DNA of 64,000 nt from assembly GCA_903932685.1 (NCBI GenBank), contig CAIZGX010000058.1:634-64633 (forward strand). Reading direction: 5' to 3'. The notes beneath the pieces are model-generated. The model did not search any database. It was not told the DNA's origin and was given only the letters and a program-made list of their open reading frames with translations. The stretch is from an uncultured Bacteroidota bacterium (lineage in GTDB: Bacteria > Bacteroidota > Bacteroidia > Flavobacteriales_D > Sanyastnellaceae). The first letter of the stretch is position 1. Each line of letters starts with the position of its first letter. The position numbers and the translations under genes are program-made. Below, one piece after another: positions 19,826 to 60,507 of the stretch.

Positions 19826-20488
19826 ATGAAAAACACTTTTCTCTTTATGTCGCTGATGCTTTTTTCCACATTCGGATTTGCGCAGGACACCCTTCAAACA
19901 CCTTTGGAATTCGTTCAGGAAATGCCAACATACCCTGGAGGGCAAGATGCTATGTTTGAAGTGATCTTTGATCACTTAGTCTACCCAGAATATGAGAAAT
20001 CGATGAACATTGAGGGCACCGTTTTAATTCAATTTATTATTGAAAAAGATGGTACACCAACGAACTTCAAGGTTTTTCGTGGTGTTACGGATGGCTCGGG
20101 ATTGGACAGTGCGGCGCTTATGGCATGTAAACAACTGGGGAAGTTTAACCCGGGAAAACAGGACGATATTCCTCAACGAGTTTATTCTGGAATGCCAATA
20201 AAGTTTTCTTTGGCCGACGACGAAGAGCCAACGGAGGAAAGATTGAGTAAAGCAGATTTGAAAGAGATAAAAAAAGATGCGAAATACATCTGCGATATGA
20301 TGTCTCAAATAGAGGAAGCGCGAAGAGCCAACGACCAACTTAAAATTGATAGTTTAACTGCAGAGTTTGACGCAGTAGCAGCAGTCCTTCAAAAGAAATA
20401 CCCTAAAAACAGCGTTAGAGAAGATTATCTCGAAGACCTAGTTAAACCTTGCCTTGAAGAAGCCAGGAAAGCCGCAATGGGGCAGTAG
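19826..20488 (+). CDS. secreted TonB C-terminal domain protein with one C-terminal two-Cys helical module
   Basis: Signal peptide plus a TonB_C-like domain (PTYPGGQDAMFEVIFDHLVYPEYEKSMNIEGTVLIQFIIEKDGT). The C-terminal module is LKEIKKDAKYIC...KKYPKNS...LVKPCLEEA. Confidence 0.7.
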   Translation: MKNTFLFMSLMLFSTFGFAQDTLQTPLEFVQEMPTYPGGQDAMFEVIFDHLVYPEYEKSMNIEGTVLIQFIIEKDGTPTNFKVFRGVTDGSGLDSAALMACKQLGKFNPGKQDDIPQRVYSGMPIKFSLADDEEPTEERLSKADLKEIKKDAKYICDMMSQIEEARRANDQLKIDSLTAEFDAVAAVLQKKYPKNSVREDYLEDLVKPCLEEARKAAMGQ

Positions 20489-20509: not shown

Positions 20510-21457
20510 ATGATTAAAAGGACTTTTCTGTTTGTTGCTTTTGTAGCGATTCAAATGCTTTCCGCTGCGCAGGCCGACACCGCAATGTTTCCGCTTCCAA
20601 AGGATTATCCAAAATATCCAGCAGGAAAAGAAGCCTTGAATGCCTTCATTCAACAAAACATCGTCTACCCCGAATACGAAAAATCAATGGGCATTGAAGG
20701 GACGGTAGTTGTTTACTGCGATGTAGAATTAGATGGTACACTGAGTAATTTTAGAATAGGGTCAACAGTTGAAGGTTCGGTTGGGTTTGATGCCGAGGCC
20801 ATTCGTGTCTGTCAGAAATTAGGCAAGTTTACTCCGTGCATGCGAAACGGTAAGCCACTTTGCTTCATAATTGATATCGATGTGAAATTCGATTTGAATA
20901 ATGGAGACGAGATGGAAATGGCCATAGCGAAATTGAGCAATCAGGAGTTAAAGGAAATTGAGAAAGATGCAAAATGGTTTTGTGATTATTTAGCGAAAAC
21001 TACAGAGCCCCGAAGAGTTGGCGATGAAGATAAATTAGCGAAATTAACGAGCAAGTATCAGAAAGAATTAGATGTTTTAGAAGATAAATACCCAGGGAAA
21101 AGCCCGAAGAGCGTTCAATTTGAAAGATTGACCAAGCCCTGCATGGATGACATGTTCAAAAGAATGGGCATCGTGGATACCGACGGTGATGGTCTCTTTA
21201 CAAAAGAAGAAGCAGAATTGACTGCAAAGGAGCTTAAGCAAATAGAGAAAGATGCGAAGTATTTCTGCTCCTTGTTTAACGAAACAATAAGTGCGAAATT
21301 TAATGGCGATACGAAAAAAGTCGAAAGACTAAAAAAAGACTTAGAAATGAAGACCGCTGCGTTGCAAAAGAAATATCCAAAGGGTAGTAAAGCGGAAAAA
21401 AAGTTTGAAGACCTAGTCTTGCCCTGCCTCAAAGAGGCGATGAATCGCTCAAAATAA
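20510..21457 (+). CDS. secreted TonB C-terminal domain protein with two C-terminal two-Cys helical modules (paralog of the previous gene)
   Basis: Signal peptide plus a TonB_C-like domain (YPKYPAGKEALNAFIQQNIVYPEYEKSMGIEGTVVVYCDVELDGT). The module LKEIEKDAKWFC...KYPGKS...LTKPCMDD occurs twice. Confidence 0.7.
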   Translation: MIKRTFLFVAFVAIQMLSAAQADTAMFPLPKDYPKYPAGKEALNAFIQQNIVYPEYEKSMGIEGTVVVYCDVELDGTLSNFRIGSTVEGSVGFDAEAIRVCQKLGKFTPCMRNGKPLCFIIDIDVKFDLNNGDEMEMAIAKLSNQELKEIEKDAKWFCDYLAKTTEPRRVGDEDKLAKLTSKYQKELDVLEDKYPGKSPKSVQFERLTKPCMDDMFKRMGIVDTDGDGLFTKEEAELTAKELKQIEKDAKYFCSLFNETISAKFNGDTKKVERLKKDLEMKTAALQKKYPKGSKAEKKFEDLVLPCLKEAMNRSK

Positions 21458-21474
21458 ATAAATAATCGCTTTCA

Positions 21475-21596
21475 TTCATCCTTCAAAGAAGGTCATCACG
21501 AAGTGTCATCACAATGTGTTGTGTCATCACGACCTGTCGTGTCATCGGCTACGCCGTCATCCAGCTTCGCTGGTAATCACAACTTGTTGTGTAGTT
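21475..21596 (+). repeat. mini-hairpin string, TCAT-linker (GTCATC core) family, array A
   Basis: Perfect GTCATC at 21492, 21505, 21523, 21541 and 21556. Degenerate copies are TTCATC (21475), GTAATC (21573) and GTAGTT (21591). All 7 intervening words are self-complementary. Confidence 0.85.
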
Positions 21597-23847
21597 ATTC
21601 AATAACTATTTCATCACAAAACAACCAACTCGGTTCGCCTACGGCGTCGTGCCATTCCGGACATGGGCCGTTGTTTACTCCAATGACCTTGATGTATCGG
21701 GCCAATTGAACTTGACCTATACCGTGGCTGAATTGATCAATAAGCTCTCCTGAAGTTTGCTCTTCAATGTTCGGATTTATCGTAGCCACTTTGTCCCATA
21801 AATTTCCGTCGAAGCTCTTGTAAATCTCCACGGCTTTCGGACGGAAGATCCACGCATTCGCGTAATGAAACCAGCGCGTGGTCACATGCTCGAACGGCTT
21901 CACATCGCCCAAGTCAATCACCACTTCCATGTTCTTGCCTTGAACGCCTTGCCAAATACCGTCTCTGAAATTCGCAGTGCCAATTCTTCCATCGACCAAT
22001 GCGTTCTCACCACCACCCGGATAATACACACTCGGCGTATAGGCAAGCGTTACCTTTTTACCTGTCGCCATGTTCGAAGTGTATACGCGTGATTCGTAGA
22101 AAACTCCTGTGCTCCAAGGAAAGTAATATTCAAAGTTTAGCGTGGTGTAGCGTTCACTTACAATGATAGGTTTGGTGTAGGTTTGTCTGGTTTCTTCTTC
22201 GTTTTTTCTGTAGTTAACAATGATTAAACTGTTCGTACTTGTCACTGCTCGAACCTCAACCTCACCAGTAGGCAATACCTGTGAACGGAAATTCAAAGGG
22301 ACGTCTGGAAATCCGTATTTAATGTTCAACTTAACCAAGCGTTCGTAGTTCTTATAAACCCGAGCAGCAAAGGCTTCGTAATCGCGTTTCTTAGGTGCTG
22401 TCCACAAGACTTCACTCAACGCCAACAACCTTGGAAATACTTTGCTATCGACAAGCTCTTGCGGTGCTCTTTCGGTCCACATATTTCCTTCCGCACCGCG
22501 AATGTATTTTCCTTCTTCCGGGCTTAACTCAGCAGGCATTGGATTGAAGCTGTAGACCTTTTCCATGTTAATGTTATCGAGGCCGTAGTCTAAATAACAA
22601 TGCGAGGTCGGACTCATAACCACACCGTGCTTTTGCTTCGCTGCGGCAATTCCTCCTTCCATGCCTCGCCAGCTCTGAATCATAGCGTCTGCAGGAATTC
22701 CTCCTTCCAGAATTTCATCCCATCCAATAATCTGTCTTCCTTTCGTGTTGAGGTACTTCGCCATTTCTTCAATGAGCCACGTCTGCAACTGCGCTTCGTT
22801 TTTCAATCCGTGATCATGAATCCTCTTCTGACATTTATCGCAATGCTCCCAACGGAATTTCGGTGCTTCGTCTCCGCCAATGTGAATGTACTTACTCGGG
22901 AAAAGTGCGCAGACTTCGTCCATCACGTCTTTCAAAAACTGAACAGTGCTGTCGTTCCCTGCGCAATAAATGTCCTTGAACACGCCCCATTCCGTTTCAA
23001 CAGGAATACTCTCTCCTGTGCAGCTGAGCCACGGATAAGCACTAATAGCAGCCACCGAATGACCGGGCATTTCTATTTCCGGAATAATGGTAATGTGCCT
23101 GGCCTGAGCATAGGCAACAATGTCTTTGATTTGCTCTTGCGTGTAATAGCCTTCGCTCACATGATTCCCGAATTTATCCATTCGATAAGAACCAAGACGT
23201 GCAAGCTCTGGATATTTTTTTATTTCAATGCGCCAGCCTTGGTCTTCAGTTAAGTGCCAATGCAAGACATTCATTTTGTAAAACGCCAAAGCGTCTATGT
23301 ACTTCTTCACGGTAGGGACATCCATGAAATGTCTTCCGCAGTCGAGCAGCATTCCGCGATGCGGATAAACTGGCGCATCTGAAATGTCCATGCTTGGAAT
23401 TTCAAATTCAGCGAACGTTTCGTTCGTCTTGAAATACTTCGGTAACAATTGCTTCAAAGTCTGCATGCCCCGTGAAATGCCTTCTTCCGTGGCCGATGTT
23501 AAACGGATTTCATTTTCGCGAACGGTTAAATAGTAGGCTTCGGTATTGGAAGGAATGTTTTTCGTGAGTTGGAAAATGACTTTTTTGGGTTGACGTTTTT
23601 CCTCGCCTTGGTTGGAAACTTCAATAACCAAATCGGGTTCGTTCTCCTTCAGCCACGAATTGAAAAGTTCAACTTCTTGCTGACACATTCCAAGCCCTTC
23701 TGCTTGTGTGCCTGCCGTACATAGAAATCCTTTTCCGTGAACATACGCAATGCTAGTCGGCATTGGAATTAGGGTTTCTACTTGCGCGAACGTTGAAATG
23801 CCTTTCAACATAAATACAACAAGAAGTGATTTGAAAATAGGTTTCAT
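21595..23847 (-). CDS. beta-N-acetylhexosaminidase (GH20) with C-terminal F5/8 type C (discoidin) domain
   Basis: 750 aa with a signal peptide and a GH20 catalytic region (HWHLTEDQGWRIEIKKYPEL, IHIGGDEA). The C-terminal ~150 aa is discoidin-like. Confidence 0.85.
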   Translation of the reverse strand: MKPIFKSLLVVFMLKGISTFAQVETLIPMPTSIAYVHGKGFLCTAGTQAEGLGMCQQEVELFNSWLKENEPDLVIEVSNQGEEKRQPKKVIFQLTKNIPSNTEAYYLTVRENEIRLTSATEEGISRGMQTLKQLLPKYFKTNETFAEFEIPSMDISDAPVYPHRGMLLDCGRHFMDVPTVKKYIDALAFYKMNVLHWHLTEDQGWRIEIKKYPELARLGSYRMDKFGNHVSEGYYTQEQIKDIVAYAQARHITIIPEIEMPGHSVAAISAYPWLSCTGESIPVETEWGVFKDIYCAGNDSTVQFLKDVMDEVCALFPSKYIHIGGDEAPKFRWEHCDKCQKRIHDHGLKNEAQLQTWLIEEMAKYLNTKGRQIIGWDEILEGGIPADAMIQSWRGMEGGIAAAKQKHGVVMSPTSHCYLDYGLDNINMEKVYSFNPMPAELSPEEGKYIRGAEGNMWTERAPQELVDSKVFPRLLALSEVLWTAPKKRDYEAFAARVYKNYERLVKLNIKYGFPDVPLNFRSQVLPTGEVEVRAVTSTNSLIIVNYRKNEEETRQTYTKPIIVSERYTTLNFEYYFPWSTGVFYESRVYTSNMATGKKVTLAYTPSVYYPGGGENALVDGRIGTANFRDGIWQGVQGKNMEVVIDLGDVKPFEHVTTRWFHYANAWIFRPKAVEIYKSFDGNLWDKVATINPNIEEQTSGELIDQFSHGIGQVQLARYIKVIGVNNGPCPEWHDAVGEPSWLFCDEIVIE

Positions 23848-28802: not shown

Positions 28803-30899
28803 ATGAGGTATTTCAACGAGCAACTGGTAACAGATCTTGAGTTTCAAGAGATTCGCAATGTGCTGTCTTCGTTCGCGAAGCAGCCCACTGCTGCTGCTGC
28901 ATTGTTGGAACTTTCGCCTTATGGAAATTTCGATTTGTGGAAATGGACCCTTGAGATCACACATGAACTCAAGACCCTTTTGCAAAACGACATTGCTATT
29001 CCGGCTTTGGATTTCAAAGAGTTCGGTGAAGAGTTGAAATTGCTTCGAGTGAAAGATGCGGTGCTGGCGGAAGAGAGCTTCGCTAAAATTCTTCAGGGTA
29101 TTCGCATTATTGGTTTGTTGAAGAACATTCCTGAAGAAGTGCGCTTATCGGTTCCGTGCTTGAACGAATTGATTCAAACCTGCGAATACACCGATGAGAT
29201 AGAGATTGAAATCTTGAAAATCTTCGATGCGAAGTGGTTGGTGCGCGACGAAGCGTCTCATGAACTTTCTGTTATTAGACACGAAATTGTTGCCACCCGA
29301 AGGGAAATCTCTAAGAACTTTTTGAGAGTCATGAAAGACTGTCAAGGCAAAGGATTCTTGGGAGATACCGGAGAAGCTTATTTGTTAGACCGAAGAGTAT
29401 TGAGCGTGTTGAGTGTATACAAGCGAAAGGTGCCCGGGAATGTCTTGGGGACGAGCAAGACGGGAGTTTTAACATACATAGAGCCGGGAGTGAATACACT
29501 TTTGAATTCACAAATGGAAATGCTTTTCGGCGATGAACGCGCTGAAATTCGGAAGATTCTTCAACGACTCACACGTTACTTATCCGGACACGCAGTTATG
29601 TTGAAGTCGGTATTGGATACCCTTCTTCAACTCGATAATATTCAGGCACGTGTGCGCTTGGCTGTGCTCATGAGTGCTCAGAAGGTTCAGTTTGTTTCAG
29701 AGCCAACTGTGAAACTCAACAAAGCTTTTCATCCGCTCTTGCTTTTGAAAAATGCAGAGCGAGGAAAAAAGACTATTCCGCAATCGTTGGAACTAAACAG
29801 TGAGCAGCGCATGATGGTTATCTCCGGTCCGAATGCAGGAGGAAAAAGTATAACGTTGAAGACAGTTGGACTTATACAACTTATGTGGGAATGCGCATTG
29901 CTTGTGCCTGCTGAAGAGTCGAGTGTGTTAAGTCGATTCGATTGCATACTCACCGACATTGGCGACAATCAGAGTATAGAGAATCAGCTGTCAACGTATT
30001 CGTATCGGTTGAAGCGCATGAAGTTTTTCTTGGATTCAGCGAATAGAAGATCACTGATTTTGTTAGATGAATTTGGAACGGGATCAGACCCGGAATTGGG
30101 TGGCGCCTTGGCCGAAGTTTTTTTCGAAGAGTTATATGCGCGAAAATCGTTTGGAGTGATAACCACGCACTTTTCCCCCATTAAAATTAAAGCTTCGCAA
30201 TTGCGTAATGCGGTGAATGGATGTATGCTTTTCAATACAGCAACTTTGGAGCCGACATACATCCTCAGTGTTGGCGAACCGGGCTCTTCGTTCACTTTCG
30301 AAGTGGCGAAGATGAATGGAATTCCGGAAGATTTATTGGATCGTGCGAAGAAGAAATTAAGCAAGCAGAAAATTGAAATGGATAGTTTGCTTTCCGATTT
30401 ACAACGACAGAAATCTGAGTTGGAGACGGGTATATCGGCCGCCAGAAAACAAGAGGCGAGCGCAAGAAAAGAGGAGCAAACTTTTCAATCTAAATTGGAA
30501 AAACTTCAAGATAAATTAGACAAGCAGCAAGTGACTTCCGAAAGAAATAACAAGTATATTATTTTAGGAAAGAAGGCAGATCAACTGGTAGAGAAATTCA
30601 ATCTTCGCGCGAAGAATAAAGATGTACTAGAAGAGCTAAAGAAATTTGTTGCGGTGGAAAAGACAGAGCGCGAAGAATCTCGAAAAAAGAAGAGGGTTCT
30701 TACAGAATCTAAAGTTAAGACTGCGACCAAAGAAAAGGTTATTCAAGATCGAAAGAAAATGATTGCGGGAGCTACTGTTCGATTGGAAAAGACGCAACAG
30801 ATAGGTGAAATTCTCGAAGTCATTGGCGAAACAGCTACGGTAGCTTTCGGAGTGTTTAAGACAAAAGTTGAATTAGGAAAACTTCTCTTAATCCGTTAG
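28803..30899 (+). CDS. mutS2: MutS2-family protein lacking the C-terminal Smr domain
   Basis: MutS domain V ATPase (SGPNAGGKS, LLDEFGTGSDP), a long coiled coil and a KOW-like C-terminus. The ORF ends without an Smr domain. Confidence 0.8.
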   Translation: MRYFNEQLVTDLEFQEIRNVLSSFAKQPTAAAALLELSPYGNFDLWKWTLEITHELKTLLQNDIAIPALDFKEFGEELKLLRVKDAVLAEESFAKILQGIRIIGLLKNIPEEVRLSVPCLNELIQTCEYTDEIEIEILKIFDAKWLVRDEASHELSVIRHEIVATRREISKNFLRVMKDCQGKGFLGDTGEAYLLDRRVLSVLSVYKRKVPGNVLGTSKTGVLTYIEPGVNTLLNSQMEMLFGDERAEIRKILQRLTRYLSGHAVMLKSVLDTLLQLDNIQARVRLAVLMSAQKVQFVSEPTVKLNKAFHPLLLLKNAERGKKTIPQSLELNSEQRMMVISGPNAGGKSITLKTVGLIQLMWECALLVPAEESSVLSRFDCILTDIGDNQSIENQLSTYSYRLKRMKFFLDSANRRSLILLDEFGTGSDPELGGALAEVFFEELYARKSFGVITTHFSPIKIKASQLRNAVNGCMLFNTATLEPTYILSVGEPGSSFTFEVAKMNGIPEDLLDRAKKKLSKQKIEMDSLLSDLQRQKSELETGISAARKQEASARKEEQTFQSKLEKLQDKLDKQQVTSERNNKYIILGKKADQLVEKFNLRAKNKDVLEELKKFVAVEKTEREESRKKKRVLTESKVKTATKEKVIQDRKKMIAGATVRLEKTQQIGEILEVIGETATVAFGVFKTKVELGKLLLIR

Positions 30900-42201: not shown

Positions 42202-43463
42202 GCACGCCACTTGCGGAAAGAATGCGTCCGAAGACATTCGATGAATACGTTGGACAATCGCATTTGATTGGCAAGGGCGCTGTGTTGCGCAGTATTATTG
42301 AAAGCGGACATATACCAAGCATGATTTTCTGGGGCCCTCCGGGTGTTGGGAAAACAACGTTAGCAAATATCATTGCGCAAACACAACAACGTCCTTTCTT
42401 TTCGCTTTCTGCCATCAATAGCGGAGTGAAAGAAATTCGTGAAGTGTTAGATCAAGCCGGAAAGGGCGGACTGTTTCAGAAGAGTGCTATTTTATTCATC
42501 GACGAGATTCATCGCTTTTCAAAGAGCCAGCAAGATTCATTACTCGGTGCGGTTGAGAAGGGAGTTGTAACTCTTATTGGCGCGACAACAGAAAACCCTT
42601 CATTCGAAGTGAACGGCGCCTTGTTGTCGCGCTCGCAGGTATACACCCTGAATGCGCTCACCAAAGATGAACTCAATCAGTTATTGGAAGACGTCATTGT
42701 TCGCGATGAAGCGCTTCGCGCTAGGAATATTCAATTAGAGGAAACGCAATCCTTATTGAAATACAGCGGCGGCGATGCCCGCCGATTGCTAAATGTACTT
42801 GAGTTAGTTGTTGAATCCATTTCAGAGACGCCTTGCGTCATTAAAAACGAATCAGTAGAGAACGTCATTCAAACAAATGCTGCACGTTACGACAAGACCG
42901 GTGAAATGCATTACGATGTCATCTCAGCGTTTATTAAAAGCGTTCGCGGAAGTCATGCGCAAGCAGCAACATATTATCTAGCGCGCATGATTAAAGGCGG
43001 AGAAGACCCGCTATTTATAGCGCGAAGATTGGTCATATTGGCTTCAGAAGACATTGGATTAGCGAATCCGAATGCGCTATTGATTTCGGAAGCAACCTTT
43101 CGCGCTGTTCAAAATATAGGCTGGCCTGAAGCGCGCATTCCACTAAGTATGTGCACAGTGTATTTGGCAACCAGCGCGAAAAGCAATTCTGTCTATACCG
43201 CCATTGACGCCGCTTTGGCGTTGGTGGAACAAACGGGAGATTTGCCTGTGCCTATGCATCTTCGCAATGCTCCAACGAAATTAATGAAGGAGTTGGGATA
43301 CGGAAAGAACTACGAATACGCGCATGCGCACGAAGGGAATTTTGTTCGTCAAGAATTTCTTCCAGAAGAAATTGCATCGTCAGAATTCTACACGCCAGGA
43401 AACAATCCGAAGGAAGCGGCTATTCTAAAATGGCTTCAAGAACGTTGGGGAACGAATGAATAA
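42198..43463 (+). CDS. rarA: replication-associated recombination protein A (AAA+ ATPase)
   Basis: LAERMRP...[20 protein letters not shown] and a MgsA C-terminal domain. Confidence 0.9.
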
Positions 43464-44532
43464 TAACACGACACGAAACTTTGGACTCGATTTATTTCGA
43501 GCGTTGGCCATTGTGTTGGTTGTGTTGTCTCACGGAAAATTTTTGTTGAATGGAACGGTTCTAGAGAATTTTCCGTTCGTGAAAATGCTCGACGGCGTTG
43601 ATTTGTTTTTCGTGTTAAGCGGATTTTTAATTGGCGGAATTTTATTGAAGTCCTCTTCTGAAGGATTGAATTGGCGAGGCATTGCGCACTTTTGGAAGAG
43701 AAGATGGTTGCGCACTTTGCCGAATTATTATTTGATCTTGTTCTTGAATTTCATTTTCATTTCTTGTGGAATTATTTCCGGAGACTTAACTGTTTTCGGT
43801 TGGAAGTTTATTGTATTCCTTCAAAATTTCACAAAGCCGCTCATTGGATTTTTCTGGGAGTCGTGGAGCTTGGCAGTTGAGGAGTGGTTCTACATTTTTA
43901 CTCCAGTTATGCTTTGGGGACTACTGAAAGTGTTTCGATTGAAATGGGCTTATCTCATTGCAACGCTTGTAATGATTGCTGTTCCCTTGATCTATCGCGC
44001 TTATTCCTTTGATTCGAAGCTCGACGATTTCTGGTTCGATGTGCAGGTCCGAAAGATTGTGGTCTTTCGACTCGATGCTATTGCATTCGGATTGTTGCTC
44101 GCCTGGATTTGTTCTTTCCATAAAGATCTTTGGGACAAGTGGAAAAACGTAGGGCTTGTTTTGGGTTTGGCAATAGTTTTATTCTTGTTGAATAACAGCG
44201 CTTCCAACGCAACTTTTTATCGTCAAGTATTTTATTTCAGCATAACACCTTTCGCTATAGCACTTATCCTTCCTTGGTTTGAAGGGATTACTTCTTCATG
44301 GAAGCGCTTGGTAAGTGCCGTGACGCACATCAGTAAGATTTCGTATTCGATGTATTTAATTAACCTTGCGCTCGTTGCCCAAGTCATCGGATTGAATTTT
44401 CCTGTTCAAGGAAATGCAGATGGGATAATGAAGTACGTTGCCTATTGGTTTATTGTGATTACAGTCTCTTCGGCGCTTTACTACTTTGTGGAAAGACCGA
44501 TTCTTCGGTGGAGAGATGACGCTTCGCGATGA
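43456..44532 (+). CDS. acyltransferase family 3 membrane protein (OafA-like)
   Basis: N-terminal GLDLFRALAIVLVVLSH and about 10 TM helices. The last five codons and the stop lie inside hairpin array B. Confidence 0.75.
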   Translation: MNNNTTRNFGLDLFRALAIVLVVLSHGKFLLNGTVLENFPFVKMLDGVDLFFVLSGFLIGGILLKSSSEGLNWRGIAHFWKRRWLRTLPNYYLILFLNFIFISCGIISGDLTVFGWKFIVFLQNFTKPLIGFFWESWSLAVEEWFYIFTPVMLWGLLKVFRLKWAYLIATLVMIAVPLIYRAYSFDSKLDDFWFDVQVRKIVVFRLDAIAFGLLLAWICSFHKDLWDKWKNVGLVLGLAIVLFLLNNSASNATFYRQVFYFSITPFAIALILPWFEGITSSWKRLVSAVTHISKISYSMYLINLALVAQVIGLNFPVQGNADGIMKYVAYWFIVITVSSALYYFVERPILRWRDDASR

Positions 44533-44631
44533 CGCAACGCGTTGCGATGACACAACACGACGTGATGACAATCTGCGATTGATGACCACTTCGTGGATGA
44601 CGGCGAAGCCGATGACCGCGCAGCGGATTAA
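44515..44631 (-). repeat. mini-hairpin string, GTCATC family, array B (inverted orientation)
   Basis: GATGAC on the + strand at 44515, 44528, 44546, 44564, 44581, 44596 and 44611, with a degenerate GATTAA at 44626. Six of 7 words are self-complementary. Confidence 0.85.
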
Positions 44632-45647
44632 TGAATGTGGTTTGCGATGTTACGTGCGATGGAAGGACCTTCGTAGATGAAGCCCGTGTATACTTGAACA
44701 AGGGAAGCACCTGCATCTATTTTTTCTTGCGCATTTTGTGAAGTGTGAATTCCTCCAACGCCAATGATTGGAAATGCGCCGTTCGATTTTGAATGCAAAT
44801 AGCGAATCACATCGGTTGAACGCGCACGCACAGGAGCTCCGCTCAATCCGCCCATTCCAATGCTTTGAATGGTTTGTGTACTCGTTTGCAAATTCTCTCT
44901 TGAAATGGTTGTGTTCGTTGCAATGACTCCCGCAATTTTTGTTTGAAGAACAATTTCAACAATGTCATTCAATTGATCGTCTGTTAAATCCGGAGCAATT
45001 TTTAAAAAGATTGGACGCGGTTTTGGGAAGGTGTTATTTGTTTCAGCAAGAGCAGAAAGAATTTTCATTAATGGCTCTTTCTCTTGCAACTCGCGTAAAC
45101 CCGGTGTATTCGGAGAGCTTACATTCACCACGAAATAATCTACACAATCGTGAAGGGCATTCAAACAAATTAAATAATCACTCAACGCATCTTCATTCGG
45201 AGTGATTTTATTCTTTCCGATATTTCCTCCAACAATAATATTTGATTTTCGTTTTCTCAAGCGTACTGCAGCGTCTTCAACCCCACCGTTATTAAATCCC
45301 ATGCGATTAATCAACCCATTATCTAACGGAAGTCTGAATAATCGTGGTTTGTCATTTCCAGGTTGTGCCTTCGGAGTAAGCGTTCCGATTTCCACATGTC
45401 CGAATCCTAACAATGCCAACTCATCTATCCAACGCGCATCCTTATCAAACCCAGCAGCCAATCCCACCTTATTGGGAAATTCAATTCCTGCTACAACAAT
45501 CTTGTTTTCTTTCGCTTTGAAAATTGATTTTAAAATCATTTTTCCTCCAGGCATTCTTGAAGAAAATTTCAATAAATCCATGGCCAAGTAATGCGCCTTC
45601 TCCGGAGAAAAAAGAAAAAAGAAAGGTTTAATCAGAAGCTTATACAT
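44628..45647 (-). CDS. pyrD: dihydroorotate dehydrogenase (quinone), class 2
   Basis: [18 protein letters not shown] and GVGGI motifs. Start taken at [11 protein letters not shown] (45647). Confidence 0.9.
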
Positions 45648-45661
45648 GCTGCAAAAATACA

Positions 45662-45892
45662 GCATCTCATCCATCAATCGTAGATTGTCATCACCTTCGG
45701 TGTCATCCGCTCCGCGGTCATCGGCTTCGCCGTCATCAATCGCAGATTGTCATCACCTTCGGTGTCATCCGCTCCGCGGTCATCGGCTTCGCCGTCATCA
45801 ATCGCAGATTGTCATCACCTTCGGTGTCATCGCAACGCGTTGCGTCATCGCGAAGCGTCATCCGCTCCGCGGTCATCCACGAAGTGGTAATG
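45662..45892 (+). repeat. mini-hairpin string, GTCATC family, array C (largest, with a 62-bp higher-order repeat)
   Basis: 13 perfect GTCATC cores between 45687 and 45877. The 14 intervening or flanking words are all self-complementary. Blocks 45687-45748 and 45749-45810 are identical. Confidence 0.9.
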
Positions 45893-45995
45893 GTGAATAA
45901 CTCTGTTGATATGTGTGAATTTCACTTTCGTCGCAAGGCTTCGTATGCCGTTTATTTTTGATAAAATCGAAAGGTTAACAAAATAGTAAAGGCAT

Positions 45996-46547
45996 ATGAT
46001 TACATTTTTTGGAAAAAAGAAAATCTCAGCAGAACGCGCAGCAACGCTGTTCGTGAATACACTGTTGGATTCAGTGGAAGGTGGTTTTTCGGAAGTTGCT
46101 GGATTTATCCGCGATACGCCTGAGCTAGTTAGTACTCCGAAAATTAGTGATGAGGAATACGGTAAATTCTTAATGATTGCCATTGTAGGAAACTTCAATT
46201 ACTTAAATGAGCATTTCCGCGATGGTGAAGGCGATTTAATTGTTCAGCATTGTATAGATCAGTTCGCACCTGTTTTCGATTTGTCTCCAATTGCCTTCCA
46301 AGCCAAATTGAACGACTACAAGAAGTTCATGGCTCATGTTAATTTCCCTTCGAAGAATATTTTGTACAGCATGTCTAAGGCTGTATTCTTCAAATATGAA
46401 TTGAATCAATACCAAGACGAGTATTTCAGAAGCATGAATACGCCGAATCCAATTTTCTTGAAGAGCTTGGATGAAGTGATGCGTAATTTCATTTGGGACT
46501 GGGAAGCATTCTGCGACAAATACAAGGTTCAGTTAGGCGGAGCCTAA
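45996..46547 (+). CDS. hypothetical cytoplasmic protein (183 aa)
   Basis: ORF only, apparently helical, with no signal peptide or motif recognised. It is bracketed by arrays C and D. Confidence 0.5.
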   Translation: MITFFGKKKISAERAATLFVNTLLDSVEGGFSEVAGFIRDTPELVSTPKISDEEYGKFLMIAIVGNFNYLNEHFRDGEGDLIVQHCIDQFAPVFDLSPIAFQAKLNDYKKFMAHVNFPSKNILYSMSKAVFFKYELNQYQDEYFRSMNTPNPIFLKSLDEVMRNFIWDWEAFCDKYKVQLGGA

Positions 46548-46656
46548 CACGCGTGGCGATGACAATCTTCGATTGATGACGGCAAGGCCGATGACACAAC
46601 ACGTTGTGATGACACTTTCAGTGATGACCTCTTCGCGTATGACACTTCGTGATTAA
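46548..46656 (-). repeat. mini-hairpin string, GTCATC family, array D (inverted orientation)
   Basis: Opens with the palindrome CACGCGTG (46548-46555). GATGAC at 46558, 46575, 46590, 46608 and 46623, then TATGAC (46638) and GATTAA (46651). Confidence 0.8.
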
Positions 46657-48147
46657 TTAATTTTGAATGAAGTATTCTAAGACGGTATCTTTTCCAGATT
46701 TCAAATCTTCTAAACTTTGTTCCAAAGGAATGTTTGGAAGTATGGGCGTTCGCGAATAACTGAACGTGTTTTTATAGTTGTATCGAATGGTCGGAACCGA
46801 ATAGGAAATTCCAGATTCTGAAAGTTGAACGGTGGTGGCGTTACCCCAGGTGCCGTTGGTAGTGGCGTTGCAAGGAGTTCCAATAAGTATTGCTCGATGA
46901 TTGCTTTGAAGCAATTGCGCGAAATCGCAAGCCGCAGAGACTGTATTTCCATTCATAAAAACGGCCATCTTTCCTGTGTAGACATGTTCTTTGCGCTGAC
47001 GCTGAGGGATACTGAAAAATGCGGTGTCTGATTCTTCCAAGGGCGTTTGACTCAACAAGTAGTATTGGTACATATCTTCACTCCGCTTGAATCGTTTCTC
47101 TGTGAATTCTGGGAAATGTTTCATTCTGAAATTTGAAACAATCTGATACGAATAGTCACTCGCTTTCCAGATAATATTACTCGGTGTGTTCAGTCCGGAT
47201 GGAGTTAAAAAGGAGCAGAGGTATTCAACCATTGAACTAGATCCGCCGGGGTTGTCACGAACGTCAATAGCAATATGAAGGATACCTAACTCTCTCGCCG
47301 CTTGAAAGAACTTTCTGATTTTCTTGACGTCGTTTTGAAAAGGTCGTGAAGAAAAGGAGCGAACGGTTAAAACAGCTTTGTCTTCATTCAAATAAAAAGT
47401 AGCTTCAATGTTTTTTTTATTTGGTTTGAAATGTTCGCGTCTAATTTTTTGAAGTTGCTTTATATCTACCAATTGCACTTCAACGCTGTCTATTTTATTG
47501 TCAACGCGGAAAACAATAGTCTCAACATCCCAATCGTTTTGCAAAGGATTTGCAAAAAAATGTGCTGGCGTGTAATAATAGGCTGCGGCTTCGTCGCTGG
47601 CATTCATAGCATTTCCCTCGTCGACGCTCCATTCTTTCGCAAGCTTGTGCAATTCAGTCATGGAAAGTTTTCCAACAGAAAGTATTTCACTTCCAAAAGG
47701 AGGACCACCAATTTGAGTTTCTTCAACATAAAATTTTCCGTCAATGGGTTGAATGAACAAAGGCAAAAAGCCAGAGTCGTATCCACATGATTCGAACAAC
47801 AGGCGATACACGTGTGTCTGCAAATGCGAGTCTTCAACAACACGAATAAATCGATTTAAATTTTGAGCATGTTGAATCATTGTTCTGTCTTCAGAATAAT
47901 AGTTAAAAGCTTTTTTGTACGCTTCGCCAAATGCCTCCTTGCCGCAATAGGCATATGGATCTGGATGAACAGTAAGAAGTTTTTCTTCAAGCTCAATCAG
48001 ATCGTCAATTAAATGGTCAGCGCAAATGCGTTCAATACTTCGTTCGCAGCGATAATACGCTTTTGAATTCGGATCGAAGCACGTGTCGGATTGAGCAGAT
48101 ACTTGAATAGCTGCCAAAGTAAAAAGTAACAAAAGAAGTATACGCAC
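46657..48147 (-). CDS. peptidase S41 family protein
   Basis: 496 aa with a GTG start and a signal peptide. Carries the S41-type motif IDVRDNPGGS. Confidence 0.65.
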   Translation of the reverse strand: MRILLLLLFTLAAIQVSAQSDTCFDPNSKAYYRCERSIERICADHLIDDLIELEEKLLTVHPDPYAYCGKEAFGEAYKKAFNYYSEDRTMIQHAQNLNRFIRVVEDSHLQTHVYRLLFESCGYDSGFLPLFIQPIDGKFYVEETQIGGPPFGSEILSVGKLSMTELHKLAKEWSVDEGNAMNASDEAAAYYYTPAHFFANPLQNDWDVETIVFRVDNKIDSVEVQLVDIKQLQKIRREHFKPNKKNIEATFYLNEDKAVLTVRSFSSRPFQNDVKKIRKFFQAARELGILHIAIDVRDNPGGSSSMVEYLCSFLTPSGLNTPSNIIWKASDYSYQIVSNFRMKHFPEFTEKRFKRSEDMYQYYLLSQTPLEESDTAFFSIPQRQRKEHVYTGKMAVFMNGNTVSAACDFAQLLQSNHRAILIGTPCNATTNGTWGNATTVQLSESGISYSVPTIRYNYKNTFSYSRTPILPNIPLEQSLEDLKSGKDTVLEYFIQN

Positions 48148-54802: not shown

Positions 54803-55636
54803 TTGAAAATTCGATTAACACTATGGGTTTGTCTATTATCAATGTCTGCGGATGCCCAGTATTTCGTTGATATTTTTTCGTTCAATAGACAGGCTTACAA
54901 CATCCCTTCAGGCGCCCAAACGAGTGACCTTTTTGTCAATGCGTTTATTCCAAAGGTTCTGAAAAACGGCAACACCGTTTTTGTTCGTGCACATTATGAA
55001 AAGCTTTCGATGCAAAGAGATTCATTGTCTGCCGATTATTCTTCGATCACACTTCCTATTGGCATGCAAGTTCAATTGAAGAATCCGAAATGGAAATTCA
55101 CAGGCTTGATTATTCCGAAAATAGCCGGTGCGGATTTGAGCGCGGCGTTTTCAGATGTTTTTCAAATTGGAGCGTATTCATTATTCACGGTAACAGAGTC
55201 TGAAAAATTTCGATACAAATTCGGATTGTATTACAATCGAGAATTCTTCGGGAATTTCTTTGTGCCGCTCGTTGGAGTTGATTGGAAGGTGTCTGATCGT
55301 TTTTCCGTATTCGGCACACTGCCTCAGAGCTTTAAGGCTTCCTATGCGATATTTCCTTCTCGCGTGAATGCAGGATTGGCCTTTCGCTCCATGACAAGAT
55401 CATTTCGTGGTGAAGACAACAACACTTTTGTTCGTTACAATGAATTGCAATTCAAAGCGTTTTTCGATTTTTATGTAACTCCAAAGAATGTAGTCTTTGT
55501 CGAAGGCGGATATTTCCTCGGGAAAACACCGCTACTTTATAACAATACCGACACCAAGAATCCTGTTAATTCTAATTTATTGAAGGAAGGGATAGCATTC
55601 CCTTTGATTAATGCTGGATGGGCGTTAAGATTCTAA
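54803..55636 (+). CDS. putative outer-membrane beta-barrel protein
   Basis: TTG start gives the signal peptide MKIRLTLWVCLLSMSADAQ. Alternating amphipathic strands, with a C-terminal aromatic residue (ALRF). Confidence 0.5.
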   Translation: MKIRLTLWVCLLSMSADAQYFVDIFSFNRQAYNIPSGAQTSDLFVNAFIPKVLKNGNTVFVRAHYEKLSMQRDSLSADYSSITLPIGMQVQLKNPKWKFTGLIIPKIAGADLSAAFSDVFQIGAYSLFTVTESEKFRYKFGLYYNREFFGNFFVPLVGVDWKVSDRFSVFGTLPQSFKASYAIFPSRVNAGLAFRSMTRSFRGEDNNTFVRYNELQFKAFFDFYVTPKNVVFVEGGYFLGKTPLLYNNTDTKNPVNSNLLKEGIAFPLINAGWALRF

Positions 55637-58048: not shown

Positions 58049-58196
58049 CTCATCACAACGTGTGGTGTCATCCGCTCCGCGGTCATCGGCTTCGCCGTCA
58101 TCAATCTCCGATTGTCATCACCTTCGGTGTCATCGGCTTTGCCGTCATCCACGAAGTGGTCATCAATCTCCGATTGTCATCCGCTCCGCGGTATTG
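58049..58196 (+). repeat. mini-hairpin string, GTCATC family, array E
   Basis: Perfect GTCATC at 58067, 58082, 58097, 58114, 58129, 58144, 58159 and 58176. Degenerate copies are CTCATC (58049) and GTATTG (58191). Eight of 9 words are self-complementary. Confidence 0.85.
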
Positions 58197-58210: not shown

Positions 58211-58798
58211 ATGGAATTCAAAAAAGGAGATCACGTTCGTTTTTTAAACGATACCGGAGAGGGAGTAATCGTCGGTTTCCCTCAAGCCGATACCGCTACG
58301 GTAGAGGATAGCAGTGGCTTTCCATTCGATCACCCACTTCGAGAATTAGTAAAAATTGAAAATTCAAAACACGAGTTTTCACAATACAATCAAGTGCAGC
58401 CGAATACGCGCGAGATGCTCGATCGGAATTTGGACGCGCATGCAGTGAAAGCGGCATCGAAAGACTTCAAGAACAGATACAAAGAGCGCGCGGCGAATGA
58501 CTTTCCACACAACGCCGATTTGTTCGAGGTTGATTTGCACATTCATGAATTGCTCGACAATTATGAGCGCATGACGAACGGAGAAATCGTAACCATTCAA
58601 ATGGAACACTTCGAGCGTATGCTGGCCATTGCAGAAAAGAAAAAAGTTAAGAAGGTTATTTTCATTCATGGAGTGGGGCAGGGAGTCTTGCGCGCAGAGA
58701 TTCGTTCATTCATCAAAAGCTATTATCCACAATGTGAATTCCTCGATGGGAATTACCAGAAATACGGACACGGCGCAACAGAAGTTAGATTCAGATAA
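58211..58798 (+). CDS. Smr domain protein with KOW-like N-terminus
   Basis: C-terminal Smr pattern (VDLHIHEL...VIFIHGVGQGVLR). N-terminal FKKGDHVRFLNDTGEGVIVGF. Confidence 0.75.
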   Translation: MEFKKGDHVRFLNDTGEGVIVGFPQADTATVEDSSGFPFDHPLRELVKIENSKHEFSQYNQVQPNTREMLDRNLDAHAVKAASKDFKNRYKERAANDFPHNADLFEVDLHIHELLDNYERMTNGEIVTIQMEHFERMLAIAEKKKVKKVIFIHGVGQGVLRAEIRSFIKSYYPQCEFLDGNYQKYGHGATEVRFR

Positions 58799-60430: not shown

Positions 60431-60507
60431 GGCATTGTAGCTCAACTGGATAGAGCATCGCACTACGGATGCGAAGGTTTGGGGTTCGAATCCCTACAGT
60501 GTCACCA
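60431..60507 (+). tRNA. tRNA-Arg (anticodon ACG)
   Basis: Hand-folded cloverleaf. Acceptor GGCATTG/CAGTGTC, D arm GCTC/GAGC, anticodon stem TCGCA/TGCGA with loop CTACGGA, T arm TGGGG-TTCGAAT-CCCTA, and an encoded CCA. 77 nt. Confidence 0.9.

What the first reader, a model, noticed from the sequence alone, without database searches (positions are those of the whole stretch)
21475..21596. Array A: a GTCATC-family array built from locus-specific words that are all palindromic, the clearest evidence for selection on structure
Cores occur at 21492, 21505, 21523, 21541 and 21556. Degenerate copies are TTCATC (21475), GTAATC (21573) and GTAGTT (21591). The words are CTTC-AAA-GAAG, AC-GAA-GT, ACAA-TGTG-TTGT, ACGAC-CT-GTCGT, GGC-TAC-GCC, CAGC-TTC-GCTG and ACAAC-TT-GTTGT. 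Most of these do not occur in arrays B to E, yet all seven are perfectly self-complementary. The array fills the gap between the convergent TonB-like gene (stop at 21455-21457) and the GH20 gene. The GH20 stop (complement of 21595-21597) lies inside the last degenerate core.
Basis: seen in the sequence. Interest (0 to 1): 0.65.

Follow-up and report, generated by a model that had tools for sequence, protein, structure and literature searches.

The report
Intergenic arrays of tiny DNA hairpins
The spacer between two convergent genes is filled by a real, fast-changing string of seven tiny hairpins joined by the hexamer GTCATC, one of five such arrays in this window, and it belongs to an apparently undescribed REP-like repeat family found only in a group of freshwater Flavobacteriales.

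Summary
At 21475-21596, five exact and three degenerate GTCATC cores separate seven short inverted repeats. Chance probability is about 1e-15.

The words are not locus-specific. They are variants of a vocabulary shared by four other arrays in the window and by arrays in related freshwater Flavobacteriales/Crocinitomicaceae MAGs.

Across 23 non-redundant arrays:
- 124 of 129 words are clean stem-loops, built on 27 different stems.
- 44 of 48 distinct triloop words close with 5'C-G3'.
- 32 of 48 have a GNA loop or its complement, the signature of the very stable d(GCGNAGC) DNA mini-hairpin.

Arrays are always intergenic (convergent, co-directional or divergent) and lie in either orientation. No transposase, Cas or Tas gene lies nearby. 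They gain and lose whole units between near-identical strains and share multi-unit blocks between loci. The same GH20 3' spacer in relatives carries other words, another core (GATTGATC, CATAAC) or no array.

Best reading: a REP/BIME-like family of tandem mini-hairpins, spread and homogenised by recombination at the core. Because it fills terminator-less convergent spacers, it probably acts as a bidirectional 3'-end hairpin cluster.

The function, and whether a dedicated enzyme exists, remain untested. I rate it a new variant of a known kind, of moderate to high interest.

The parts
21475..21596 (+). Array A: 8 cores (5 exact GTCATC, 3 degenerate) alternating with 7 mini-hairpin words. It fills the whole spacer between the TonB_C-domain gene (stop 21455-21457) and the GH20 gene (stop at complement of 21595-21597).
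   Evidence: The DNA minimum-free-energy fold is seven separate hairpins, z = -4.81. RNA folds give z = -3.96 (+ strand) and -2.49 (- strand).
21481..21491 (+). Word 1, CTTCAAAGAAG: 4 bp stem, AAA loop.
21498..21504 (+). Word 2, ACGAAGT: 2 bp stem (3 with the flanking C/G), C-GAA-G triloop.
   Evidence: The strains in runs X8 and X10 lack 21492-21522, which is this unit plus the next.
21511..21522 (+). Word 3, ACAATGTGTTGT: 4 bp stem, TGTG loop. A variant of ACAACGTGTTGT, which is found in 5 genomes.
21529..21540 (+). Word 4, ACGACCTGTCGT: doubly compensated stem variant of the ACAAC..GTTGT word.
   Evidence: The same word stands at the orthologous locus in L133.
21547..21555 (+). Word 5, GGCTACGCC: 3 bp stem. 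The TAC loop is the complement of the GTA (GNA) loop.
21562..21572 (+). Word 6, CAGCTTCGCTG: 4 bp stem. The TTC loop is the complement of GAA.
   Evidence: Also present in L100.
21579..21590 (+). Word 7, ACAACTTGTTGT: the terminal unit next to the GH20 stop. It is conserved in all relatives with GTCATC-type arrays and differs only in the loop.
   Evidence: The SNP at 21585 T>C is in the loop.
44515..44631 (-). Array B: 7 exact cores, lying between the convergent acyltransferase gene and pyrD. The last codons and stop of the acyltransferase ORF (43456-44532) lie inside the array.
45670..45892 (+). Array C: 13 exact cores in the divergent spacer between pyrD and a 183-aa ORF. It contains an exact 62-bp four-unit block repeated twice.
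   Evidence: A 31-bp two-unit indel at 45826-45856 is seen in run X22.
46548..46656 (-). Array D: 5 exact cores plus degenerate ones. It fills the convergent spacer between the 183-aa ORF and the S41 peptidase gene.
58049..58196 (+). Array E: 8 exact cores in the divergent spacer between eutBC and an Smr-domain gene. It ends 15 nt before that gene's ATG.

Best explanation
Array A is one copy of a lineage-specific, non-coding repeat family that resembles REP/BIME elements.

**Anatomy (shown).** Head-to-tail units consist of a 7-13 nt mini-hairpin plus the invariant hexamer GTCATC. The effective linker is TCAT. The stems are always complementary, and the loops are mostly C-GNA-G or its complement.

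**Propagation (inferred).**
- Arrays grow, shrink and exchange multi-unit blocks by slippage, unequal recombination or gene conversion. These events are seeded at the identical cores.
- This keeps interior cores perfect while the array edges decay.
- Stems stay perfect through selection for hairpin formation, through hairpin-templated correction, or both.
- No element-encoded enzyme is needed in cis.

**Function (inferred).**
- At convergent gene ends such as TonB-like/GH20, the array is the only structured element and fills the entire spacer.
- Both transcripts must therefore run into it.
- There the string of hairpins most likely acts as a bidirectional hairpin-cluster terminator or a barrier to 3'-exonucleases, as REPs do in enterobacteria.
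- Copies in divergent spacers would be tolerated passengers.
For: **Family and structure.**
- Five arrays lie in 64 kb.
All other hits were coding Asp-rich repeats.
- 124 of 129 words are clean stem-loops on 27 different stems.
- 44 of 48 triloop words have C-G closure, and 32 of 48 have GNA or TNC loops. These match the extraordinarily stable d(GCGNAGC) mini-hairpins (PMC13037366).

**Turnover in unit register.**
- 31-bp two-unit indels occur at 21492-21522 and 45826-45856 in other populations.
- Array C contains an exact 62-bp tandem block. Arrays C/E and C/B share 39-40 nt multi-unit blocks, with B inverted relative to C.
- In L073, whose flanks are about 88% identical in nucleotides, arrays C and D sit at the same loci with conserved end units but reshuffled interiors.
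- The GH20 3' spacer of relatives at 89-93% amino-acid identity carries 2-6 GTCATC units with other words, or a GATTGATC-core array. One partial match (L144, 95% over residues 383-750) has none. A relative at 63% identity carries a CATAAC-core array.

**Context.**
- Arrays are always intergenic, in any gene arrangement and either orientation.
- The window holds only housekeeping genes, with no transposase, HUH, Cas or Nop gene.
- Targeted scans of viral contigs found no arrays.

**3'-end role.**
- No hairpin-plus-T-run terminator exists at junctions A, B or D, although the organism uses them elsewhere.
- The arrays abut both stop codons within 35 nt or less.
- RNA-library contigs run from the TonB-like gene to 21542 (100% identical to the window) and from GH20 to 21521.
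- Hairpin clusters have been proposed as terminators (PMC8355165).
Against: - The RNA evidence consists of unstranded assembled contigs from libraries that may contain DNA. No 3' ends were mapped.
- Three of 18 arrays with a determined context, including C and E in this window, lie in divergent spacers where a terminator role makes no sense.
- Orientation relative to transcription is not fixed.
- The GNA/C-G loop signature is a DNA-stability signature. It points at least as much to a single-stranded-DNA role as to an RNA role.
- Perfect conservation of 38 interior cores beside very diverse words could instead mean that the core is a protein recognition or cleavage site.
- Only about 5% of any one genome was seen, so a dedicated enzyme elsewhere in the genome is not excluded.
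Confidence: 0.5

Rival explanations
1. The units are mobilised on single-stranded DNA by a hairpin-specific enzyme encoded elsewhere in the genome, such as a RAYT-like Y1/HUH transposase. It would recognise the mini-hairpin and cut or join in the GTCATC tag. Each insertion regenerates the target, so arrays grow by self-targeting.
For: - Interior cores are invariant while the words are diverse.
- Loops are those of ultra-stable DNA mini-hairpins on one strand or the other.
- The same stem occurs with both loop orientations, for example ACCTTCGGT and ACCGAAGGT.
- Identical multi-unit blocks occur in arrays of opposite chromosomal orientation, B versus C.
- Back-to-back inverted array pairs are always (-) then (+) in four cases. 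This recalls REP dimers and clusters, which are attributed to RAYTs (PMC3733652).
Against: - No such gene lies in the 64-kb window.
- The tag is neither GTAG nor CGTC.
- Stems of 3-6 bp are shorter than those of most described REPs.
- Unit-register indels flanked by the core are equally expected from slippage.
Confidence: 0.2
2. The arrays are functionless by-products of replication. Slippage between 6-bp cores creates and deletes units, and intrastrand template switching turns imperfect inverted repeats into perfect ones. The arrays persist where they do no harm.
For: - Turnover is very fast compared with flanking substitutions. The arrays also show presence/absence and change of type at one locus.
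- Arrays occur only in intergenic DNA, enriched where there are no promoters: 7 of 18 are convergent.
- Array edges are degenerate.
Against: - The same vocabulary and exact core persist across genomes whose flanks are about 88% identical in nucleotides, and across several MAGs.
- Arrays C and D are retained at the same loci in two such genomes.
- Three different array types occupy the same GH20 3' spacer in diverged lineages.
- The strong bias to C-G closure and GNA loops is not predicted by template switching alone.
Confidence: 0.2
3. The arrays are binding platforms on double-stranded DNA, like iterons or a nucleoid-protein array. A protein would recognise the repeated GTCATC, and the hairpin words would be spacers.
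For: - The core is conserved exactly.
- Two arrays lie in divergent promoter regions. Array E ends 15 nt before a start codon.
Against: - Core spacing varies from 13 to 19 bp, so sites are not in helical phase (word lengths).
- This model gives no reason for the spacers to be palindromic.
- Most arrays lie at gene 3' ends.
- Relatives replace the core by GATTGATC or CATAAC while keeping the hairpin architecture.
Confidence: 0.07
4. The arrays encode a functional structured RNA, either a guide-RNA array (TIGR/CRISPR-like) or a protein-sponge sRNA with many hairpins.
For: - The regular repeat/variable layout fits an array-type RNA.
- TIGR 'stem-loop arrays' also have variable but consistently palindromic segments (PMC12045711).
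- On the minus strand the core contains GAUGA, which gives weak C/D-box snoRNA matches.
Against: - All Rfam matches have E > 1 and score far below gathering thresholds.
- There are no non-palindromic spacers. The variable parts come from a small shared vocabulary and therefore carry no target information.
- Five dispersed arrays lie in either orientation, with no Tas/Nop or Cas gene in the window.
- Loops are not conserved.
Confidence: 0.03

Closest known systems
REP/BIME elements (GTAG- and CGTC-tagged repetitive extragenic palindromes; REPINs) of Proteobacteria and others
   Same: - Short extragenic stem-loops carrying a conserved short tag at one end.
- Many dispersed copies, often clustered head-to-tail or inverted.
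- Located mostly at gene 3' ends and sometimes overlapping stop codons.
- Copy number varies between strains.
- Proposed roles in termination and mRNA 3' protection (PMC3733652).
   Different: - The tag is GTCATC, not GTAG or CGTC.
- Stems are only 3-6 bp, against 5-13 bp in REPs.
- Many different stems share one tag, instead of one consensus palindrome.
- Arrays are strictly tandem with a fixed 4-nt linker and reach 13 units.
- No RAYT gene was seen.
- The lineage is Flavobacteriales.
DNA mini-hairpins d(GCGNAGC)/d(GCGAAGC) (Hirao and co-workers)
   Same: - C-GNA-G triloops closed by a C-G pair dominate the words. GCGAAGC itself occurs as a word in arrays B and C.
- Such hairpins are unusually stable, nuclease-resistant and not bound by SSB, and they occur at phage and plasmid priming sites (PMC13037366).
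   Different: - The known natural examples are single hairpins in replication origins or promoters, not dispersed tandem arrays.
- Half of the loops here carry the motif on the opposite strand.
- No link to priming has been shown here.
Hairpin-cluster intrinsic terminators (Gupta and Pal 2021)
   Same: Several adjacent hairpins lie within 80 nt or less of a stop codon, without a U-tract, at operon ends (PMC8355165).
   Different: - Those clusters are not a repeat family and have no conserved linker.
- They are not hypervariable.
- They are not found in divergent spacers.
TIGR stem-loop arrays (Tas/Nop-domain RNA-guided systems)
   Same: Tandem units contain variable but consistently palindromic segments between short conserved motifs (PMC12045711).
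   Different: - TIGR units carry two non-palindromic 8-12 nt spacers flanked by box C/D motifs and lie beside a Tas gene.
- Here there are no such spacers and no Tas gene.
- Here there are many loci per genome.
TAACTGA and STRR-type tandem heptamers of Beggiatoaceae, Cyanobacteria and some Bacteroidetes
   Same: Lineage-restricted short intergenic repeat arrays of unknown mechanism, some in Bacteroidetes (PMC4679880).
   Different: Those are pure tandem heptamers, without interspersed palindromes and without a hairpin architecture.

Membership tests
REP/BIME (RAYT-associated extragenic palindromes) | Extragenic location, high copy number, and potential to form a stem-loop | tested here: met
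   Five arrays with 38 exact cores lie in 64 kb, all intergenic. 124 of 129 words are stem-loops.
REP/BIME (RAYT-associated extragenic palindromes) | Conserved GTAG or CGTC tetranucleotide tag at one end of the palindrome | tested here: not met
   The tag is GTCATC. GTAG appears only in one degenerate terminal core, at 21591. CGTC arises only when a word happens to end in C.
REP/BIME (RAYT-associated extragenic palindromes) | One consensus palindrome of about 20-40 nt per family, with stems of 5-13 bp | tested here: not met
   There are 27 different stems of 2-5 bp (3-6 with the core's C/G), and words are 7-13 nt long.
REP/BIME (RAYT-associated extragenic palindromes) | A RAYT (Y1 transposase) gene in the genome, typically flanked by the repeats | not testable with these tools
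   None is present in the window's 54 ORFs. Only about 64 kb plus scattered 2-10 kb pieces of related genomes could be read.
TIGR-Tas arrays | Adjacent Tas (Nop-domain) gene | tested here: not met
   No Nop-domain protein was found among the window ORFs.
TIGR-Tas arrays | [quoted passage not shown] | tested here: not met
   Every variable segment is itself a palindrome drawn from a shared vocabulary. C/D-box matches have E > 1.
CRISPR | Repeats of 24-48 nt separated by unique spacers of similar length, with cas genes | tested here: not met
   The repeat is 6 nt. The 'spacers' are 7-13 nt and recur between loci and between genomes. No cas genes are present.
Canonical intrinsic terminator | GC-rich hairpin followed by a T/U run | tested here: not met
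   No such site was found in 21300-21750 or 44400-46750. Such sites do exist elsewhere in the window.
Any Rfam RNA family | Covariance-model score at or above the gathering threshold | tested here: not met
   Only tRNA-Arg at 60431 passes. In E-value mode only chance hits appear.

The most novel reading that the evidence does not exclude
The arrays could be the trace of an unknown recombination or transposition system that acts on single-stranded DNA. In it the mobile unit would be a 7-13 nt GNA mini-hairpin plus a hexamer joining site, which would make it the smallest 'cut/copy-and-paste' unit known. Such a system would write hypervariable hairpin strings into intergenic DNA, and different sub-lineages would use different joining sites (GTCATC, GATTGATC, CATAAC).
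Probability: 0.15. Interest if true: 0.8.

Novelty: new variant of a known kind. Interest (0 to 1): 0.6.

Why it matters
- It would extend REP-like 'structured junk' to Flavobacteriales in an unusual form, with one constant hexamer and many interchangeable mini-hairpins.
- It offers a natural case in which the ultra-stable GNA DNA mini-hairpin, so far known from a few origins and from oligonucleotide chemistry, is used hundreds of times in a genome.
- The arrays change between strains that are otherwise almost identical, so they could serve as fine-scale strain markers for abundant freshwater bacteria.
- They break short-read assemblies: many contig ends fall inside them.
- If they act as bidirectional terminators, they would help explain how genes without classical terminators end in this group.

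Tried and rejected
1. **Avoidance of GTCATC outside arrays.** A dinucleotide shuffle suggested 12 observed against 29 expected. With order 2-4 Markov models the expectation is 14-16, so there is no depletion.
2. **Phage origin.** Three viral-contig scans were run, one generic pattern and two specific two-core words. They gave only coding repeats or nothing.
3. **Known RNA family.** Rfam gathering and E-value modes gave nothing real.
4. **TIGR/CRISPR-type guide arrays.** Rejected on architecture and on the absence of effector genes (and the Pfam scans).
5. **TAACTGA-type repeats.** These have a different architecture.
6. **The 183-aa ORF between arrays C and D as an associated enzyme.** It has no Pfam match, and it is simply syntenic in L073 (95% amino-acid identity) between ordinary genes. 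It was not pursued further.
7. **Mapping transcript ends.** Only assembled, unstranded contigs were available. Three RNA runs that contain the very same strain gave no coverage at arrays B-E.
8. **Literature.** Five full-text searches for the core sequence, hairpin arrays, and REPs in Flavobacteria found no description of this family.
9. **Genome-collection scan.** The taxonomic range found (seven loci from six Flavobacteriales/Crocinitomicaceae MAGs) is therefore a lower bound.

Full report
**1. Observation**

The sequence at 21475-21596 reads: TTCATC-CTTCAAAGAAG-GTCATC-ACGAAGT-GTCATC-ACAATGTGTTGT-GTCATC-ACGACCTGTCGT-GTCATC-GGCTACGCC-GTCATC-CAGCTTCGCTG-GTAATC-ACAACTTGTTGT-GTAGTT.

- The array fills the spacer between the stop of a 315-aa TonB_C-domain ORF (21455-21457) and the stop of a 750-aa GH20 hexosaminidase ORF on the other strand (21595-21597). 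The GH20 stop lies in the last degenerate core.
- The words are stem-loops, with stems of 2-5 bp and centres of 2-4 nt, rather than perfect palindromes.
- The last C and first G of the flanking cores add one base pair to every stem. The true single-stranded linker is therefore TCAT.

*Shuffling test.* Per-word probabilities are 0.0018-0.057 and their product is 4e-16. A second null, the frequency of equally good stems in all same-length k-mers of the window, gives about 7e-16.

*Folding.* The minimum-energy fold of the + strand as DNA is exactly seven separate hairpins (z = -4.81). As RNA, the z-scores are -3.96 (+ strand) and -2.49 (- strand).

*Not an artefact.* The array is identical on three independent metagenome contigs.

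**2. A family, not a single locus**

GTCATC occurs 50 times in the window against 29.8 +/- 4.1 in shuffles. Thirty-eight of these lie in five arrays:

| Array | Cores (coordinates) | Strand |
|---|---|---|
| A | 21492-21561 | + |
| B | 44515-44616 | - |
| C | 45687-45877 | + |
| D | 46558-46628 | - |
| E | 58067-58181 | + |

A four-core pattern scan of one genome per prokaryotic species returned mostly coding Asp-rich tandem repeats, because GATGAC encodes Asp-Asp. A few other hits (L017, L117) had palindromic-looking words, but these were monotonous repeats of a single word. The window's own sequence is widespread in lake, river and estuary metagenomes.

I pooled 23 non-redundant arrays, giving 129 words of which 64 are distinct.
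- 124 word instances (59 distinct words) are clean stem-loops.
- The five exceptions are single-substitution derivatives of clean words.
- There are 27 different stems.
- The same stem carries up to seven different loops.

The vocabulary is shared between genomes. CGCTCCGCG is found in four sources, ACAACGTGTTGT in five and ACCTTCGGT in four. 'Locus-specific words' is therefore not correct for array A. Its words are loop or compensated-stem variants of the common ones, and three of them recur elsewhere: ACGAAGT, CAGCTTCGCTG and ACGACCTGTCGT.

**3. Loop signature**

Of 48 distinct triloop words, 44 are closed by 5'C-G3' (nominal P = 2e-22). Thirty-two have a GNA loop (23) or its complement TNC (9), against 1/8 expected (nominal P = 4e-18).

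- C-GNA-G is the motif of the 'extraordinarily stable' DNA mini-hairpins d(GCGNAGC), with Tm of 70-76 degrees C. These are exonuclease-resistant, not bound by SSB, and present at G4 and ssiA priming sites (PMC13037366).
- GCGAAGC itself is a word in arrays B and C.
- The reverse complement of C-TNC-G is C-GNA-G, so nearly every unit offers this hairpin on one strand or the other.
- The same stem occurs with both loop orientations: ACCTTCGGT here, ACCGAAGGT in L006 and L033.

This is a DNA-stability signature. It does not exclude an RNA role.

**4. Context**

All arrays are intergenic. Among 18 non-redundant arrays with a determined context, 7 lie between convergent genes, 8 between co-directional genes and 3 between divergent genes. 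They lie in either orientation relative to neighbours.

- In the window, A, B and D are convergent, and C and E are divergent.
- Four back-to-back pairs of oppositely oriented arrays were seen in relatives, always (-) then (+).
- In convergent spacers the arrays abut both stop codons within 35 nt or less, and they sometimes contain a stop: GH20 in array A, and the acyltransferase ORF in array B.
- No hairpin-plus-T-run terminator exists at junctions A, B or D, although convincing ones exist elsewhere in the window, for example near 1594, 5771, 15797 and 36549.
- All 54 ORFs of the window are ordinary chromosomal genes, including ribosomal proteins, ThrRS, IF3, YidC, PyrD, EutBC and T9SS-tailed proteins. 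None is a transposase, HUH enzyme, integrase, Cas protein or Nop-domain protein.
- GC skew is positive throughout the window, and arrays lie 3:2 on the two strands. There is no sign of a replication-strand rule in this small sample.

**5. Dynamics**

- Contigs from two other lake populations match the locus at about 97-99% identity but lack exactly 21492-21522, which is two units (31 bp). Within the array, the only base difference they carry is 21585, a loop base.
- An RNA-library contig of another population lacks 45826-45856 in array C. This is again two units (31 bp), bounded by the core.
- Array C contains an exact 62-bp four-unit block twice.
- C and E share a 40-nt stretch and C and B a 39-nt stretch, each spanning several units. 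B is inverted on the chromosome relative to C.
- In L073 the neighbouring protein is 95% identical and the flanks about 88% identical in nucleotides. Arrays C and D occupy the same two spacers, and the terminal units are conserved, but the interior units differ in number, order and identity.

For locus A itself, I fetched 80 loci encoding GH20 relatives.
- Among full-length orthologues at 89-93% amino-acid identity, the spacer after the GH20 stop carries one of two things. It may hold two to six GTCATC units with other words, always ending in ACAAC-loop-GTTGT next to the stop. Or it may hold a second array type, with core GATTGATC, stems ATC...GAT of 5-7 bp, and a 1-2 nt linker. One partial match (L144, 95% over residues 383-750) carries no array.
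- An orthologue at 63% identity carries a third type with core CATAAC.
- More distant relatives, in the remainder of about 585 kb scanned, show no such arrays.
- Some relatives have a different left neighbour that ends in a classical terminator. There the GTCATC units lie between that terminator and the GH20 stop.

**6. Transcription**

Only assembled, unstranded contigs of RNA libraries were available.
- One 157-nt contig, 100% identical to the window, runs from inside the TonB-like gene (21386) through its stop to 21542.
- A 554-nt metatranscriptome contig of a related strain runs from GH20 into the array, to 21521.
- Array-like sequence is common at contig ends in these libraries.

This fits read-through of both convergent transcripts into the array. 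It does not map 3' ends, and DNA carry-over cannot be excluded.

**7. Interpretation**

*Shown:*
- A lineage-restricted, dispersed, non-coding repeat family with a constant hexamer and interchangeable mini-hairpins.
- Structure, not sequence, is conserved in the words.
- Gain and loss occur in unit register, and blocks are shared between loci.
- No enzyme is encoded in cis.

*Inferred:*
- The identical cores seed slippage, unequal exchange and gene conversion. This would also explain why interior cores are perfect while the edges decay (TTCATC, GTAATC, GTAGTT and similar).
- The arrays fill terminator-less convergent spacers, and three array types occupy the same GH20 3' spacer in diverged lineages. 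The most likely cellular effect is therefore a hairpin-cluster 3'-end element acting on both strands, as proposed for REPs and for hairpin clusters (PMC3733652, PMC8355165).
- Copies in divergent spacers argue that much of the family is simply tolerated.

*Main rivals:*
- A trans-acting ssDNA hairpin-specific enzyme (RAYT-like). This is favoured by the invariant core, the DNA-type loops, the loop flips and the inverted shared blocks.
- A purely mutational origin, combining slippage with templated correction of quasi-palindromes.

Neither rival can be separated from the favoured reading with the data reachable here.

**8. Comparison with known systems**

- *REP/BIME elements* are the closest kind. 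The general criteria are met: extragenic, repeated, hairpin-forming, clustered and variable between strains. The defining details are not: there is no GTAG or CGTC tag, no single consensus palindrome, the stems are much shorter, and RAYT presence is untestable. I therefore file it as 'works like a REP family', not as a member.
- *TIGR stem-loop arrays*, CRISPR, Rfam families, canonical terminators and TAACTGA/STRR repeats were each tested and not met.
- *Literature.* Five full-text searches found no description of GTCATC-linked hairpin arrays. The library is incomplete, so prior description cannot be excluded.

**9. Verdict**

- The feature is real and far beyond chance.
The 'locus-specific' point is wrong, and 'selection' is unproven.
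- I rate it a new variant of a known kind (REP-like), with interest 0.6.
- The most novel reading not excluded is a mini-hairpin mobile unit with its own enzyme, at about 0.15 probability.

Noticed in passing
L124, L125, L127, L130, L131, L192 (spacer just after the GH20 match end, e.g. L125:6243-6316): A second array type occupies the orthologous GH20 3' spacer in close relatives. Its hairpins have ATC...GAT stems of 5-7 bp with GNA/TNC loops, joined by 1-2 nt linkers (core GATTGATC). No such array occurs in the window.
   Followed up: partly
L135:6205-6330 (shown as reverse complement): A third array type lies at the same position in a GH20 orthologue of 63% identity. The core is CATAAC, alternating with AAC..GTT hairpins such as AACGCATCGCGTT.
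   Followed up: partly
window 45687-45810: An exact 62-bp block of four units (ACCTTCGGT, CGCTCCGCG, GGCTTCGCC, AATCGCAGATT, with their cores) is present twice in tandem. This implies a very recent duplication.
   Followed up: yes
L058:5801-6022, L107:3441-3573, L115:819-1049, L128:9323-9498: Pairs of oppositely oriented arrays lie back to back, always the GATGAC-reading array first and then the GTCATC-reading one. The arrangement is reminiscent of REP dimers.
   Followed up: no
window 44500-44532 and 21595-21597: Arrays reach into coding ends. The last codons (…RWRDDASR*) and stop of the acyltransferase ORF 43456-44532 are array sequence, and the GH20 stop lies in a degenerate core.
   Followed up: partly
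window 45996-46547 (+): A 183-aa ORF with no Pfam match is flanked by arrays C and D in inverted orientation. It is 95% identical and syntenic in L073. There is no sign that it is linked to the arrays beyond position.
   Followed up: partly
window 55633-57921 (-): Ethanolamine ammonia-lyase large and small subunits (EutB and EutC) are fused in one 762-aa ORF.
   Followed up: no
window 28803-30899 (+) and 58211-58798 (+): A MutS2-like protein (MutS_V plus the MSSS domain) lacks a detected Smr domain. A separate 195-aa Smr-domain protein is encoded directly downstream of array E.
   Followed up: no
window 19826-20488 and 20510-21457 (+): Two tandem TonB_C-domain paralogues. The second carries an internally repeated C-terminal module (…KEIEKDAK.FC… …KYP.KS…).
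   Followed up: no
window 21427-21535, 44556-44595, 45719-45790: Weak sub-threshold matches to C/D-box snoRNA models (E = 1.3-4.8). They arise because the minus-strand core contains GAUGA, and I judged them to be chance.
   Followed up: yes
window 46531-46549: A 7-bp hairpin, GTTAGGC-GGA-GCCTAAC, overlaps the stop codon of the 183-aa ORF just before array D.
   Followed up: no
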